A DNA stretch of 64,000 nt from Fistulifera solaris (Eukaryota). Positions 4,101 to 40,665 of this stretch are shown here, in pieces; the stretch's first letter is position 1; the number at the start of each line of letters is the position of its first letter. Below the pieces are notes generated by a model. That model searched no databases, was not told the DNA's origin, and saw only the letters and a program-made list of their open reading frames with translations. The position numbers were made by a program, and so were the translations under genes. Location of the stretch: contig AP026164.1 of NCBI GenBank assembly GCA_030295235.1, forward strand, positions 1,426,001-1,490,000, in the 5' to 3' direction.

Positions 4101-4320
4101 TTTCTGGTCGCCGTTGCTTTGATTTATTTGAGCCGAGAGTCCGAATTTCGAAAAGACTACTACTACGTGTCCCGCATCTTTTTTGGAAGACGAACCCCAT
4201 CCTCGAACGCCTATTATCCATCGGTCTGGGCAGCATAGATTTTCTCGCCATGCTTGGACGTCGGTGGAAAAGAATAACCGTAGTGGTGAAAAGCAATCTT
4301 TGCTCGATAATCAATAATGG
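4101..4320 (+). pseudogene. Truncated, frameshifted copy of the 3' end of the COPI-associated gene at 12125-12940
   Basis: FLVAVALIYLSRESEFRKDYY is identical to the 12125 gene, followed by indels. The 5' part of the gene is absent. Confidence 0.85.
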
Positions 4321-5054
4321 CAATTTATGAGGATTTTGAGCTCTAGATGTAATTGGGCCAGCGTTGGATCGTCAAAGGCATCTTGACAGCCGCGATGTAC
4401 TCGTGGAACGTGATGCGATGTACAAGTTACGAAAGACCTCCTCCATTGACAAGGAAGGAGTCAAGATCAAGCACGATACTCTCTAGCTCTTTGCCACTTG
4501 CAAACAACCAAGGACTTTTGCCACCTTCAACATGCGACACGCAACCGAAGTGGTCAATCAGATCCTCATGAAGTCCATTTCAACCTCGTATTACTGCTAT
4601 AGCATCTTCTCTTTAAAAGAGAGTGTTAGCGTCGACACCGTGTCCCTTGCCATTTTCTATTGGCAGAGAAGACACTAATATCACATCAACAACCTTGTTA
4701 TGAAGCATAGATCAAAAACAAGATGGAAATGCTTGAACCTGTACAAGGTACTGGATGCCATGGAACAATCTGTTCATAATGCTGTCATTTTCAGTCGACA
4801 AGAAAATGAATCACAACCAGCTTTTCAAGTTTCTGGATACCCGGCTTTCTTTCCGTTGAACCGATGGCAATATATCTCTTCATCAAATCACCTCATATAA
4901 TATGCTTTGAGAGTGAAAATGGAAGAATCAAGCAACACAGCCATAGATTGCAGACCGATGTAAGTCGTAAAGTTCTAGCTCGAACGAGAAGGATCGCCGC
5001 CCCGTATAAACTGGCTTCCGAAAAAAGGAATGACCGCAACGAATCATCATCCCC

Positions 5055-5058
5055 AAAA
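5055..5058 (-). terminator. Putative Pol III T4 terminator of the permuted tRNA
   Basis: TTTT 8 nt after G37; also present in the second copy (TCTGAATATTTT). Confidence 0.45.
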
Positions 5059-5066
5059 GATTCAGA

Positions 5067-5148
5067 CCGTAGTCAGGCGCCTTGCCATTGGGCCAACGGG
5101 AAAGCACGACGATTTCCCGCCCGGGATTCGAACCCGGAATCTCCTGAT
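5067..5148 (-). tRNA. tRNA-Arg(ACG): Circularly permuted tRNA-Arg(ACG): 3' half 5148-5113, 10-nt spacer, 5' half 5102-5067
   Basis: The minus strand reads ATCAGGAGATTCCGGGTTCGAATCCCGGGCGGGAAA-tcgtcgtgct-TTCCCGTTGGCCCAATGGCAAGGCGCCTGACTACGG. Swapping the halves gives a complete 72-nt cloverleaf: acceptor TTCCCGT/GCGGGAA, anticodon stem CCTGA/TCAGG, loop CT-ACG-GA, T arm CCGGG-TTCGAAT-CCCGG. Confidence 0.9.
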
Positions 5149-5187
5149 ACACTAGCTGACATTGTCATGAAGAGAGGTAATTCGTTG

Positions 5188-5198
5188 ATATAAATATA
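5188..5198 (-). promoter_or_regulatory. TATA-like element ~30 nt upstream of the permuted tRNA leader
   Basis: TATATTTATAT on minus (TATAAATA on plus), with CAA at ~5161-5163 just before the leader. Confidence 0.5.
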
Positions 5199-6616
5199 GC
5201 AGTTAAGGCACTCGTTTTCAGCGTCTTTTTAAGTAATTCGGTGGGGCGGTAACTGGACGGTACATTTTCTCCCAGTCATCCAGTACCGCACAGGTGCGCG
5301 ATGCGACAGAACAATCCCCCATGGTCCTTCCGCCAACAGTCCTCTGCCCCAGTGAAGAATAAAAAAGCAAAAGTACGATCTCCCTGGATGTGAACCATCC
5401 GTCGAACAAGGGCGGAAAAACAACGCAACGCCATGATATGACGCCATGGCTATGCCAACAAAACCGCACAACGACCGACCTCCGCTCTTCGCTCCTCGCT
5501 CCTGCCTCCCCTTGCCCTCGCTCCTCGCTTTCTCCAACTCCAACACTCCTCGAACTCGAACTCGAACCTCGATCCTAAAACTTGTCCTTACGCCAACGGT
5601 GCTCTGTCCGTGTAAAATAATGAAAGAGCAAAAGTAAAATCTTCACTGGATGTGAACCGTCCGTGGAAAGAAGGTCGAGTAGATGCCTAAACGGGACAAG
5701 GACCGCAGCAAGCTTTCCTTCGAGCAGCGCGCGTGTATTGGAATCCGACAACCGATAAGAGACATGATGGCTTTCCTTTTGATCCGATCACGCAAAAGAA
5801 TGATTCATTCCCTGAAAGCTTACTCACATTCACATAGGCTTTTGCAGACGGGGTTACCGGGGCAGAGCAATCAAAGGAAGGCCCTGGCTATTTCGTCTCA
5901 ACGATGACTCTCGTACCTGGCGATTGATGGAAAGCTCTTTCTTCAAATTATTTGTTCCCTTTCTCACCATACCTTGTATTTTTTCGTCAACAGCATGTGA
6001 GACGAGTCGTCGTCGTCCGATTTTTTGTCTTTCGCGCGCACCAAAATGGTGTGGTTCATTGGAAATTTGATTTCCCGCTGGAAAGACGCTCAACGCAGAG
6101 GAGTGAGCCCATTGCTAGCCGTTAATCGTTATTTGCCGAGAAGAGAAGGGAACGCAAATGCGGATAAAATGATAAATAAAGCCTATGAATGTACGGAGTG
6201 AATCACTTTTGACGCCATGGTCGTAATGTAACATTCACGTCCGATGAGGGACTACAATGAGCCAAATGGCCAAAAAGGGAAAGAAACGTAAAAATGACCC
6301 GAACGAGTCACACTGAGTATCCATCAAGTTGTAGAGAAAGACATAGTGAATTTCACACGTCACTCGTTTTGAATAATAATCTTTTCGAATTCACATTCGA
6401 CGAGAGCGAGATCGACGAAAACGTAAAACAAAAATCTTTTCCGAAGCCCTCGCAACGAAGATACCAGGTACCGAGTACGAAAGACGACTGACGTTCCCAA
6501 TTACCAGGTATTTCAACTTTGCACACGTTGAGCTTCTTCTTCATTCTCGAATACAACCATTTGTTCGTTCTTCGACTTGTGTTTTTATTAATTTACAAGA
6601 GCCTTACTAGCATATC

Positions 6617-11269: not shown

Positions 11270-12334
11270 GCTCACCAAATTGCTCCTCGTCTTGACCACG
11301 TCGGCTAGTGCATCAGGAGATTTCAGGGTTCGAAACATCCCGGGCAGGAAATCGTCGAAGTTTCCCGTTGGCCCAATGGCAAGGCGCCTGACTACGGTCT
11401 GAATATTTTGTGGATGATGATTCGTTGCGGTCTTTCCTTTTGTTTGTCATCTTTCTCGTTCGAGCTAAGACTGGCATATGCCGGCAATCTATTGCTGCGT
11501 CGCTTGATTCTTCCAGTTTCATTCTCGACGAAAACTCTTTGAGGTGATTTGATGAAGAGATATTACTGTACCTGGTAAGTCGCTTCAGCGGAAAGAATGC
11601 CAGGTATCCAGAAATTTGAAAAGCCTTTCGTGATTTCATGTCTTATCGACTGAACATGACAGCACTACGGATTGGTCTTTTCAATGGCATACAGTACAGG
11701 TACAAGCATTCTCGATCTTGCTTTTGATCAATGCAAAATAATAAGGTTGCTGGACTGAGAGAATTGTGTGCTCTAGCAATAGAAAAATGGCAAAGGACGC
11801 GGTATTGACGCCAACATTTTCTTTGCGATGAGAAGGTGAGATTGCAGTATTACGAGGCTGAAGTCTGACTGCATGAGGATCTGATTGACGACCACTTCGG
11901 TTGCGTGTCGCATGTTGAAGGTGGCAAAGTCCTTGGTTGTTTGCAAAGCGGCGATGATCAAGAGTCTTGTGCCCGATTCTACTTCTCCCTTGTCAATGAA
12001 CAAGGGTTTTCGTAACTTGTACACTCCATAATGTCCCACTCGAACACTATCACTGGACAAGATGCCTTTTACGATCAGTAGCTGGCTCACTCACATTTAA
12101 GTTCAAAATACTCATTAATAGCTACTATTGATTATCGAGCAAAGATTGCTTTTCACCACTACGGTTATTCTTTTCCACCGACGTCCAAGCATGGCGAGAA
12201 AATCCATGCTGCCCAGTCCGATGGATAATAGGCGTTCGAGGATGGGGTTCTACTTCCAGAAAAGCTGCGGGATAGTAGTCTTTTCGAAATTCGGATTCTC
12301 GGCTCAAATAAATCAAAGCAACGGCGACCAGAAA
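11270..12334. repeat. Right arm of the inverted duplication (partner 4101-5185)
   Basis: Reverse-complement match to the left arm. Confidence 0.9.
11312..11397 (+). pseudogene. Degenerate second copy of the permuted tRNA-Arg(ACG)
   Basis: The 5' half (11362-11397) is identical to copy 1. The 3' half (11312-11351) is 4 nt longer, with a disrupted T arm (TCAGGGTTCGAAACATCCCGG) and an acceptor mismatch (GCAGGAA). No upstream TATA. Confidence 0.75.
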
Positions 12335-38752: not shown

Positions 38753-39378
38753 AGGAATACCAGCTATGAAAATCGTCGGCGATCGTTACATTCTTGGTAA
38801 AATTGGAAGATAAATAGGTCTATTTTTGCAAAGAAGCAGACAGGTAGACGGGAATCAAACCACCAACGGCATATTACCAACAAGCTCCGATATGATGAAT
38901 CTCGGTGGATTAATTTCCATAATAATGAATCAAAAAACAAACGAGTACCCATTGGCAGACAAATCATGAGATCCATCATTAAAGATTTTGTTCGGCGATC
39001 GACGGAACTGGACTCTGAAAGGCGTGAATATTTTCGTGGTCAAATAACTACCTGGTCGCTCTAAAAGTTTCTTGAGCATTATTTGTCGTCAATATTGACT
39101 AGCTTCCCACGGGGCCGACGCAATTTTTCACGTAGACCTTAAATTGTTGCAAAAGTACTGTGTTTCTGGTATTTGAAACAGCATTACACCCCGGAGTAAA
39201 CAGAATAGTGTTCGAGAATAAAACAAGTTGAACATAACTCTAGTTGGAATGACAGTCATTTTACAGAAATCCTGGAGCGTTGTTTGTTGTTTTTGATGAT
39301 ACAGAAATCCTTTCCAGAAATTGTGGATACGGTGTTTTGGTTTGTGGAGAAATTCTGCGTACGATCCCGAATTTCTAA

Positions 39379-39856
39379 GGCTACTACGCTACTACCAAAC
39401 TTCCATTTTGATTCTGCTCAATTAGCTGGCGCTTTTTTGTTTCATTCAGAAAGCAGTAGCGTTCAGCAGCATTTGCAATAGACGCGGCGACTCATGATGC
39501 CGAAAGTCCTTGCGGATCTCTGTTTTTCTGTATTTACTATATACCTCAAGTGTTGACTGTTTTTCGCCACGACTGCATTTCAGTCATGAGTCACTTTCCT
39601 TCCGAACAACGCTACTAGGCTACTACGCTCCTACCAAACTTTCATTTTGATTCTGCTCAATTAGCGGGCGCTTTTTTGTTTCATTCAGAAAGCAGTAGCG
39701 TTCAGCAGCATTGCAATAGACGCGGCGACTCATGATGCCGAAAGTCCTTGCGGATCTCTGTTTTTCTGTATTTACTATATACCTCAAGTGTTGACTGTTT
39801 TTCGCCACGACTGCATTTCAGTCATGAGTCACTTTCCTTCCGAACAACGCTACTAG
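39379..39856. repeat. Near-identical ~239-bp tandem duplication
   Basis: ggctactacgct..ccaaactt..gattctgctcaattagc..aacaacgctactag starts at ~39379 and ~39618. Confidence 0.9.
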
Positions 39857-40241
39857 TGCCTCATAGCAGAGCGTATCCAAAACACAAACAAGTCTATCCA
39901 ACTGTATAATGTTATTGTAGAAACGGAGTACCGGTGCGGATACGATGGATACACCATTACTATTAAGTTATTCCGCAGGAGCGAGTAAAATAGCTCCGTT
40001 AAGGATAAAATTATCGTGACTTTTCATCGTGCTCTTTTGCATCTCGCATTCAAAAAATGGAGGTGAATTTTTACAACGACGAAAGCTGGTCTACACATGG
40101 CGACCACATTCAAATTACTACTCCGTACTAGAAATGCTGTATCCAGGTGGATACATTTTGTGTCGTACTGGTATGCTTGGATACACGTTTACTACTGTTG
40201 TATCCAATGTATTCCTGGGGATACGCTCTGCTGTGAGGCAC
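39856..40241. mobile_element. ~390-bp MITE-like element with terminal inverted repeats; TSD TA or CTAG
   Basis: ctagtgcctcatagcagagcgtatcc (39853-39878) versus ggatacgctctgctgtgaggcactag (40219-40244): 25 of 26 inverted match. No coding capacity; internal gtatcca/tggatac repeats. Confidence 0.8.
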
Positions 40242-40244
40242 TAG

Positions 40245-40665
40245 AATCGGTGCTTTTAATCATACAGAAATTCTGATTGATTTCCAGAACATCCGGATAA
40301 GGTGGTTTTGGTTGAGACAGAACTCCTGTGTTAGGTCCAGATATTTTGCAGACGATGTTTTTGGTCATACAGAAATCCTGCGTTGATTCCAGAAAATCTG
40401 GAAAAGGTGTTCATAAACATACAGAAATGCTGTATATGTATGAAAAATTCTGGAAACGCGATGTTTTGGTTTTGGATCATTCTCCAGACATTCTGGATAC
40501 GGTGGTTTTGATCATAAGGACAATAATATGTTGTGTAACCTTACGTCCCACAACTTCTGGAGACGGTGTAATTCATGACGCAGAAATTCTCTTTCATATA
40601 GAATTTCTGCGGACGTTCCAGAAATTCTGGATATGGTACGATAATGCGAAAAAGATTCCATAGAA
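40245..40665. repeat. Degenerate satellite of the palindromic (TC)CAGAAATTCTG(GA) motif; also at 39260-39360
   Basis: Many copies, e.g. tccagaaaatctgga, tccagacattctggata, tccagaaattctggata. Confidence 0.7.

What the first reader, a model, noticed from the sequence alone, without database searches (positions are those of the whole stretch)
5061..5160. Leader and trailer of the permuted tRNA form a relaxed bulge-helix-bulge at 37/38
Seen: leader TCAG (5159-5156) pairs with trailer CTGA (5065-5062). G36-G37-U form a 3-nt bulge with the required cut after G37. Leader TAG pairs with C32-U33-A34, with one C:C mismatch at position 35, and the second bulge (UGU-A38) is 4 nt rather than 3. Copy 2 keeps the pairing through a G:U change (TCGG). 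Known: tRNA splicing endonucleases recognise this kind of substrate in permuted precursors. This supports function rather than chance rearrangement.
Basis: partly seen in the sequence, partly recalled or inferred. Interest (0 to 1): 0.75.

Follow-up and report, generated by a model that had tools for sequence, protein, structure and literature searches.

The report
Splice junction of back-to-front diatom tRNA
A diatom writes its arginine tRNA gene back half first, and the flanks of the gene can pair to bring the two cut sites together, as in the few algae known to make tRNAs through a circular RNA, although this copy's junction is one base off the textbook shape.

Summary
The described bases are all there. 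They flank a circularly permuted (type II, 37/38) nuclear tRNA-Arg(ACG) gene of a pennate diatom; no ordinary nuclear Arg(ACG) gene turned up. In 16 non-redundant groups of related permuted genes from metagenomes, the leader reads GTAG-like at -6..-3, complementary to C32-U33-A34-C35 (G at -3 in 13 of 16; background 0.20). In permuted Cys genes the motif changes with the anticodon loop. So flank pairing is under selection and TSEN processing is likely. It needs a 4-nt 3' bulge, which published TSEN substrates do not show. It is 5.2 kcal/mol above the predicted ensemble, though two relatives have the same shifted register with a perfect helix. The outer TCAG/CTGA helix folds well here, but only 5 of 17 genes have 4 or more in-register pairs. 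Copy 2 looks like a decaying duplicate, so its G:U is weak evidence; the intact homoeolog on C3 is better. No processed RNA was seen. The mechanism is known from red and green algae; I found no report for diatoms. This scan noted the same thing earlier on the C3 copy and in another diatom genome.

The parts
5188..5198 (-). TATA-like element (TATATTTATAT) 40-50 nt upstream of position 38; candidate upstream Pol III promoter
   Evidence: also present in the C3 homoeolog, absent in copy 2; function inferred from PMC3978253
5149..5168 (-). 5' leader of the precursor (start site not mapped; 5168 is an estimate)
   Evidence: inference from distance to the TATA-like element
5156..5159 (-). leader strand of the outer helix (TCAG, -11..-8)
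   Evidence: pair probabilities 0.83-0.94 with cloverleaf enforced
5152..5155 (-). leader CTAG (-7..-4): 3 of 4 match to the GTAG consensus that faces C32-U33-A34-C35 in relatives, shifted one base outward
5113..5148 (-). 3' half of tRNA-Arg(ACG), positions 38-73, no CCA encoded
   Evidence: ARAGORN calls the re-ordered halves tRNA-Arg(acg); 7 of 7 acceptor pairs
5103..5112 (-). 10-nt intervening sequence closing the acceptor stem
5067..5102 (-). 5' half of tRNA-Arg(ACG), positions 1-37; C32=5072, anticodon ACG=5070-5068, G37=5067
5062..5066 (-). trailer U(+1) and CTGA (+2..+5), trailer strand of the outer helix
5055..5058 (-). T4 run, candidate Pol III terminator 8 nt after G37
11301..11409 (+). 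copy 2 (leader TCGG 11301-11304; 3' half 11312-11351; linker 11352-11361; 5' half 11362-11397): probably a decaying duplicate with a 4-nt T-arm insertion, 6 of 7 acceptor pairs and no TATA-like element

Best explanation
This is the splice junction of a functional, circularly permuted (type II, 37/38) nuclear tRNA-Arg(ACG) gene of a pennate diatom. Inferred steps: Pol III transcribes leader, 3' half, linker, 5' half and a short trailer from an upstream TATA-like element to a T run. The RNA folds into a tRNA body, and leader and trailer take the place of an intron. The eukaryotic tRNA splicing endonuclease places both cuts at 37/38 mainly by measuring from the tRNA body, helped by a loose leader:anticodon-loop helix. 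In this lineage a 4-6 bp outer helix also holds the two free ends together. G37 is ligated to A38 to give a circle; RNase P and RNase Z remove the linker and CCA is added. Shown here: gene anatomy, conservation of the layout and of the leader:anticodon complementarity in relatives, and two TSEN-type catalytic subunits in the genome. Not shown: transcription, cleavage, ligation. In this copy the junction is one nucleotide longer on the leader side than canonical.
For: Re-ordered halves give a clean tRNA-Arg(acg). DNA search of the genome gives 3 places, all permuted; of 16 matches to an anticodon-to-T-arm ACG pattern, the only ordinary Arg(ACG) genes are the 3 on contigs C60/C61, which hold organelle-type tRNA clusters. 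CGU+CGC are 173 of 489 Arg codons in 12 window ORFs. The C3 homoeolog differs at 1 exon position while leader, linker and trailer diverge, and it extends the outer helix to 5 Watson-Crick pairs plus a G:U. 24 of 57 metagenome loci hold 29 permuted Arg(ACG) genes. In 16 groups: G at -3 in 13 (background 0.196); central helix of 3 or more pairs including C32 in 11 (register -3) or 13 (either register) against 0.055 and 0.108 background. In-register outer helix averages 2.8 pairs for cognate and 1.2 for non-cognate pairs (permutation p 4e-5), with unrelated sequences. Pair counting: 59.1% of cells paired against 51.7% shuffled (0 of 500) and 37-46% when slid. In 3 permuted Cys(GCA) genes the leader reads GCAT, GTAT, GCAA and pairs 3, 3 and 4 of 4 with U32-U33-G34-C35. 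Register -4 with 4 of 4 pairs in L086 and L105, whose nearest exon relatives use register -3. PF01974 matches at 3 places, two distinct proteins. Pathway as reviewed in PMC3978253.
Against: No 37/38 joint or processed RNA in the 4 runs laid (contigs only). No 32:(-3) pair, which human, frog, yeast and fly enzymes need. Outer helix of 4 or more in-register pairs in only 5 of 17 genes, one of them a poly-U trailer; longest helix at any offset is no better than non-cognate (5.2 vs 5.2, p 0.43). Two-sided-change counts are not above shuffles (339 and 48 of 500). Positions 32-35 are invariant among the Arg genes, so they cannot show compensatory change. The 16 groups are related, so the p values are too small. 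An ordinary Arg(ACG) gene with a long or T-loop intron or with C60 would escape.
Confidence: 0.8

Rival explanations
1. Same gene and same cuts, different junction: the enzyme sees a canonical 3-nt 3' bulge (G-2, U-1, A38) closed by a C32:U-3 mismatch and U33:G-4 wobble, or by a 2-bp A34:U-3/C35:G-4 helix. The extra leader base sits in an internal loop next to the 5' cut. The first reader's C32:G-4 helix never forms. (A sub-case of the best explanation; the probability is for the geometry.)
For: With both cut sites held open, the best fold of copy 1 and of the C3 copy has exactly these three bases unpaired and a 2-bp central helix, about 2.3 kcal/mol better than the register -4 form. In this genome 11 of 17 intron-containing tRNA genes examined lack a standard 32:(-3) pair, 10 of them with U at -3 (L137 re-read by hand as Pro-AGG, which moves it from C to U). 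Both permuted Cys genes also have U32:U-3. A 3-nt 3' bulge was invariant in 16 Drosophila pre-tRNAs (PMC6614914).
Against: Leader TAG at -6..-4 matches the family's GTAG motif shifted by one base. L086 and L105 have perfect GTAG only in register -4, and their base at -3 (A, C) cannot pair with C32.
Confidence: 0.4
2. The flank pairing is incidental. The tRNA body alone brings the ends together, the enzyme cuts by ruler, and the leader motif is a leftover of the ancestral intron or a promoter element such as a surrogate A box.
For: The host's own introns pair poorly. AGTRG in many Arg leaders resembles the 3' part of an A box. The outer helix is absent in most relatives. Origin from tandem intron-containing genes would leave intron-like leaders (PMC3978253).
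Against: The 5' part of an A box is not conserved (T at -13 in 3 of 16, C at -10 in 3 of 16). The motif changes with the anticodon loop in Cys genes. Only -3..-6 are conserved while the rest of the leader has diverged. Unrelated outer helices of 5-9 bp sit exactly in register in L099, L105 and L109.
Confidence: 0.12
3. The gene is a non-functional rearrangement or an assembly artefact, and the pairing is chance.
For: No RNA evidence of processing; copy 2 is visibly decaying; the precursor fold is not better than shuffles.
Against: Same layout in the C3 homoeolog and in 29 metagenome genes with near-invariant exons and freely varying linkers of 4-19 nt. Contigs of run X1 match the locus letter for letter across the halves (X1 may be the source of the assembly). 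No alternative nuclear Arg(ACG) found.
Confidence: 0.04

Closest known systems
Type II (37/38) permuted tRNA genes of Ostreococcus, Micromonas and the Bigelowiella natans nucleomorph (Maruyama 2010, as tabulated in PMC3978253); B. prasinos and prasinoviruses BpV1/BpV2 also have permuted tRNAs (PMC3673656)
   Same: 3' half before 5' half, short linker (10 nt; 5-64 nt in the table), junction at 37/38, AT-rich upstream element, relaxed hBH junction suited to a eukaryotic endonuclease
   Different: Stramenopile host nucleus. Arg(ACG) is not among the 34 genes of the 2014 table, and the O. tauri Arg(ACG) row is not flagged permuted. This copy lacks the 32:(-3) pair and has one extra leader base.
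Type II permuted tRNA genes of Cyanidioschyzon merolae, e.g. Leu(CAG), Thr(AGT), Gln(CTG) (Soma 2007, via PMC3978253)
   Same: Layout, TATA-like element and T stretch, no encoded CCA, proposed circular intermediate
   Different: C. merolae has junctions and introns at many positions; in this diatom the permuted genes I could examine (Arg, Cys) and 17 intron genes all use 37/38. Circular intermediate and charging are shown there, not here.
Eukaryotic pre-tRNA bulge-helix-loop substrate of TSEN (human, fly; PMC8479045, PMC6614914, PMC10485636, bioRxiv 10.1101/2022.09.03.506465)
   Same: Cuts at 37/38, weak anticodon helix, 5' site loosely defined, ruler from the tRNA body
   Different: The 'intron' is two free ends.
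Strict archaeal bulge-helix-bulge (hBHBh')
   Same: 3-nt 5' bulge G36-G37-N and an outer helix h'
   Different: Central helix 3 of 4 pairs and 3' bulge 4 nt; not a strict BHB

Membership tests
Type II circularly permuted tRNA genes | 3' half upstream of 5' half, joined by a short intervening sequence | tested here: met
Type II circularly permuted tRNA genes | Re-ordered halves give a canonical cloverleaf with junction at 37/38; CCA not encoded | tested here: met
   (tRNA-Arg(acg), 7 of 7 acceptor pairs); junction inferred from sequence, not mapped
Type II circularly permuted tRNA genes | Upstream TATA-like element and downstream T stretch | tested here: met
   for copy 1 and the C3 copy; my TATA pattern hit 35-65 nt upstream in 6 of 16 metagenome representatives
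Type II circularly permuted tRNA genes | Leader and trailer form a BHB-like motif at the junction | tested here: inconclusive
   Met at family level; in this copy only a shifted, thermodynamically unfavoured form
Type II circularly permuted tRNA genes | Circular RNA intermediate; mature charged tRNA | not testable with these tools
   Only assembled contigs were available; no 37/38 joint in 4 runs
Strict BHB (hBHBh') | 4-bp central helix | tested here: not met
   3 of 4 in register -4; 1 of 4 in register -3
Strict BHB (hBHBh') | Two 3-nt bulges | tested here: not met
   5' bulge 3 nt, 3' bulge 4 nt
Eukaryotic TSEN substrate (bulge-helix-loop) | Base pair between position 32 and base -3 before the 3' cut, giving a 3-nt bulge | tested here: not met
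   U at -3 opposite C32 in all 3 copies; met in 13 of 16 related groups; also unmet in 11 of 17 intron genes of this genome
Eukaryotic TSEN substrate (bulge-helix-loop) | Host encodes the catalytic endonuclease subunits | tested here: met
   PF01974 over cut-off at C19, C20 (a homoeolog-like pair) and C10; Tyr/His/Lys motif seen by eye; accessory subunits not searched
Eukaryotic TSEN substrate (bulge-helix-loop) | Cleavage at 37/38 by the organism's enzyme | not testable with these tools
   needs an assay

The most novel reading that the evidence does not exclude
Diatoms widely make tRNA-Arg(ICG), an apparently indispensable decoder, from permuted genes, and their splicing endonuclease has relaxed the rule thought general in eukaryotes (32:-3 pair, 3-nt 3' bulge). 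It would accept a helix shifted by one base with a 4-nt bulge, a state that seems to have arisen separately in the window's lineage, L086 and L105, as well as pyrimidine mismatches at the anticodon-intron pair.
Probability: 0.35. Interest if true: 0.7.

Novelty: new member of a known kind. Interest (0 to 1): 0.5.

Why it matters
Permuted tRNA genes are documented from one red alga, prasinophyte green algae and their viruses, a nucleomorph and one archaeon. A conserved set in diatoms adds a third major eukaryote lineage and explains tRNAs missed by standard finders (ARAGORN and Rfam found nothing in this window). Diatoms can be transformed (recalled), so the long-inferred role of flank pairing in circularisation could be tested in vivo. 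The natural series found here (canonical register, shifted register, outer helix of 0-9 pairs, mismatch at the 32 pair) is a ready-made panel for asking what a eukaryotic TSEN needs at the 3' cut. The BHB-like junction itself is an expected feature of this gene class.

Tried and rejected
ARAGORN and Rfam on the window: 0 hits. Unconstrained folding: no signal. RF00005 on the genome scored only 63 of 1922 candidates, mostly organellar, so it is not an inventory. Genome patterns found no permuted genes. One search found the two intact Arg copies and one search added the two Cys genes; the other 14 of 15 stretches fetched failed the re-ordering test. Sequencing runs: 4 laid, contigs only, no 37/38 joint; the freshwater RNA contig X2 covers 5072-5320, runs far into upstream DNA and may be DNA, so it is no evidence. 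Viral contigs: Arg patterns gave 2 and 1 hits, ordinary tandem tRNAs (L173 judged from its contig range matching L120, not read). The Cys pattern gave 3 hits, of which 2 are ordinary. 33 of 57 metagenome loci were dropped: 32 did not pass the permuted-layout rule (ordinary tandem or intron-containing genes, chance), and L118 duplicates L116 and is cut by the contig end. A shifted junction (36/37 or 38/39) was rejected because it gives U37 or breaks the A31-U39 register, and 37/38 is the only cut shared by all relatives. A-box reading of the leader motif: rejected (see rivals). No shared neighbouring genes between metagenome loci and the window. L116's host could not be named by protein. The sigma-70 scan is not relevant to a Pol III gene. 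Inosine at 34 as the reason for U/C/A opposite A34: considered, not supported (one relative, L127, has G there).

Full report
What is there. On the minus strand the window holds the 3' half of a tRNA (A38=5148 to position 73=5113), a 10-nt linker, then the 5' half (position 1=5102 to G37=5067) with anticodon ACG. ARAGORN and Rfam see nothing in the window, but the re-ordered halves are called tRNA-Arg(acg) with 7 of 7 acceptor pairs. A TATA-like element lies 40-50 nt upstream and a T4 run 8 nt after G37. The window is on contig C4 of a 51.7-Mb eukaryotic assembly. The neighbouring UGPase-phosphoglucomutase protein is 98% identical to a Fistulifera solaris protein, and the other named hits are diatoms, so the host is a pennate diatom.

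Observation check. A leader that gives both 3 or more central pairs including C32 and 4 or more outer pairs in one register occurs in 0.12% of 127,960 window 20-mers (0.24% with four registers; criteria set after the fact). The outer duplex alone is unremarkable: 10 of 32 non-cognate leader/trailer combinations are as stable. The free fold is no better than shuffles (z -0.83).

Copies in the genome. A DNA search finds three places, all permuted. Copy 2 (11312-11397) lies in an inverted duplication (4101-5127 against 11337-12334). It has a 4-nt insertion in the T arm, 6 of 7 acceptor pairs and no TATA-like element, so it is probably decaying and its TCGG wobble is weak evidence. The C3 copy (L003) shares upstream sequence with copy 1, differs at one exon position, keeps a TATA-like element and lengthens the outer helix to five Watson-Crick pairs plus a G:U. 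Of 16 matches to an ACG-anticodon-to-T-arm pattern, the only ordinary Arg(ACG) genes are 3 on C60/C61, contigs with organelle-type tRNA clusters. Pattern inventories show nuclear Arg(TCG), Arg(TCT) and Arg(CCT) but no Arg(ACG) (the first 100 of 166 rows were listed, covering all contigs up to C58). CGU and CGC make 173 of 489 Arg codons in 12 window ORFs and are normally read by tRNA-Arg(ICG) in eukaryotes (established knowledge). The search would miss a gene with an anticodon intron over about 29 nt, a T-loop intron or C60.

Relatives. One metagenome scan returned 57 loci. 24 of them hold 29 permuted Arg(ACG) genes with linkers of 4-19 nt; 33 loci were dropped. I grouped the 29 by eye into 16 groups. 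Fourteen have exons within 6-16 differences of the window gene; one of these (L082) lies beside a diatom pyrenoid-shell gene, and the rest are diatom-like only by that similarity. L084's neighbour has Bathycoccus prasinos as its only named hit. L116's tRNA resembles the O. tauri Arg(ACG) row in the supplement of PMC3673656. So two groups are probably green algae.

Test of the pairing. Leader positions -6..-3 read G 12, T 9, A 8 or G 5, G 13 of 16, i.e. GTAG, the complement of C32-U33-A34-C35 in the canonical register with a 3-nt 3' bulge; positions further out are mixed. G at -3 is 13 of 16 against a background of 0.196. A central helix of 3 or more pairs including C32 is present in 11 of 16 (register -3; background 0.055) or 13 of 16 (either register; 0.108). 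The groups are related, so the nominal p values overstate the case. The in-register outer helix averages 2.8 pairs for cognate and 1.2 for non-cognate combinations (4 of 100,000 permutations as high). It reaches 4 or more in 5 of 17 genes (L084, a poly-U trailer; L099 9; L105 5; L109 7; window 4), with unrelated sequences. The longest helix at any offset shows no excess (p 0.43). Pair counting on the 19-row alignment in register -3 gives 59.1% paired against 51.7% shuffled (0 of 500) and 37-46% slid; covariation score 0.262 against 0.156; the two-sided-change counts are not above shuffles (339 and 48 of 500). Their leaders read GCAT (C4), GTAT (C3) and GCAA (L171) and pair 3, 3 and 4 of 4 with U32-U33-G34-C35. 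The motif follows the anticodon loop, which argues for pairing and against a promoter element; n is only 3.

The geometry of this copy. The window gene has U at -3. Its TAG sits at -6..-4, one base further out. Their nearest exon relatives use register -3, which suggests repeated one-base shifts (weak: 72-nt sequences). Against this, with the cloverleaf enforced the predicted fold keeps TCAG/CTGA (p 0.83-0.94) but pairs U-3,G-2,U-1,A38 with G36,C35,A34,U33, burying the 3' cut. Several relatives with good helices also pay 3.5-6.7 kcal/mol, so this is not fatal. The literature passages I saw say that human TSEN needs a pair between 32 and -3 for the 3' cut (PMC8479045), that the 3-nt bulge is gripped by TSEN2 (bioRxiv 10.1101/2022.09.03.506465), that 16 fly pre-tRNAs all have a 3-nt 3' bulge and too strong a helix hinders splicing (PMC6614914), and that site choice leans on a ruler (PMC10485636). 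Yet 11 of 17 intron-containing tRNA genes examined in this genome lack a standard 32:(-3) pair, 10 with U at -3 (homoeolog pairs included; L137 corrected by hand), and one Arg(TCT) gene pairs C32 with G-4 like the window gene. The host enzyme evidently tolerates loose 3' sites. Two distinct PF01974 proteins are encoded.

Mechanism. Most likely the pathway described for algal permuted tRNAs (PMC3978253, parts 1-6 of 11 read): upstream-promoter transcription, endonuclease cuts at the leader/38 and 37/trailer boundaries, ligation to a circle, removal of the linker by RNase P and Z, CCA addition. All RNA steps are inferred. Four runs were laid, contigs only, and no 37/38 joint appeared, which neither supports nor refutes.

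Novelty. Searches for 'permuted tRNA' (74 papers, 40 listed), with 'diatom', 'stramenopile' and 'Phaeodactylum' showed no diatom report in their listings. The 2014 table has no stramenopile and no Arg(ACG). Passages of the 2026 review (PMC13578239) and of PlantRNA 2.0 (its supplements are closed) name only red algae, green algae, a nucleomorph and archaea. Soma 2007 and Maruyama 2010 were not read, subscription journals are mostly missing, and file 1 of the PMC3673656 supplements was not searched. This scan had already noted the C3 copy, its junction, Cys and Ile genes, and a similar Arg gene in another diatom genome; I count those as leads, not support.

Verdict. Observation confirmed; interpretation partly supported. 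A real, probably essential permuted tRNA gene in a lineage where I found none reported, with flank pairing conserved at family level. This copy is not a BHB by the strict test, and which loose conformer is cut remains open. Interest 0.5.

Noticed in passing
L103:185-860 (minus strand; units at about 666-870): Two permuted Arg(ACG) units in tandem with a 19-nt spacer and no T run between them, so the middle reads as an ordinary intron-containing gene; it resembles the proposed intermediate in the origin of permuted genes.
   Followed up: partly
L171:270-385: Permuted-layout tRNA-Cys(GCA) with a perfect 4-bp leader:anticodon helix, directly after ordinary Arg(ACG) and Gly(TCC) genes, on a contig filed as a giant-virus MAG; flanks could not be extended upstream, so viral origin is unchecked. 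Permuted tRNAs are reported from BpV1/BpV2.
   Followed up: partly
L134:539-618 and L152:137-216 (G000 C4 and C3): Permuted tRNA-Cys(GCA) pair in the same genome, U38, canonical register with U32:U-3 mismatch and TATA-like elements.
   Followed up: yes
L084, L102, L133; L116, L118: Permuted Arg(ACG) genes with divergent exons, probably from Mamiellophyceae-like green algae; the O. tauri Arg(ACG) is not flagged permuted.
   Followed up: partly
L135-L151: 11 of 17 intron-containing tRNA genes of this genome lack a standard anticodon-intron pair at 32:(-3); U at -3 is the commonest state.
   Followed up: partly
G000:C23:408299 and G000:C24:397176 (L145): tRNA-Arg(TCG) has no intron on C23 but a 14-nt insert at 37/38 on C24, whose chromosomes otherwise carry matching genes.
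   Followed up: no
window:4101-5127 and 11337-12334: About 1-kb inverted duplication (76-98% alike) that flanks the UGPase-phosphoglucomutase and RRM genes and carries copy 2; no second copy was found on C3.
   Followed up: partly
window:20748-21099, 39378-39858, 40219-40638: Tandem repeats (75-nt unit with CCAGAAAAT motifs; 238-nt duplication) in intergenic stretches.
   Followed up: no
L109, L115, L119, L132: Several relatives carry two separate permuted Arg(ACG) genes 128-521 nt apart, each with its own T run.
   Followed up: no
G000 nuclear contigs: My patterns did not find nuclear His, Phe, iMet, Val(AAC/CAC), Glu(TTC), Ala(TGC) or Ile(TAT) genes, so more atypical tRNA genes may be hidden.
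   Followed up: no
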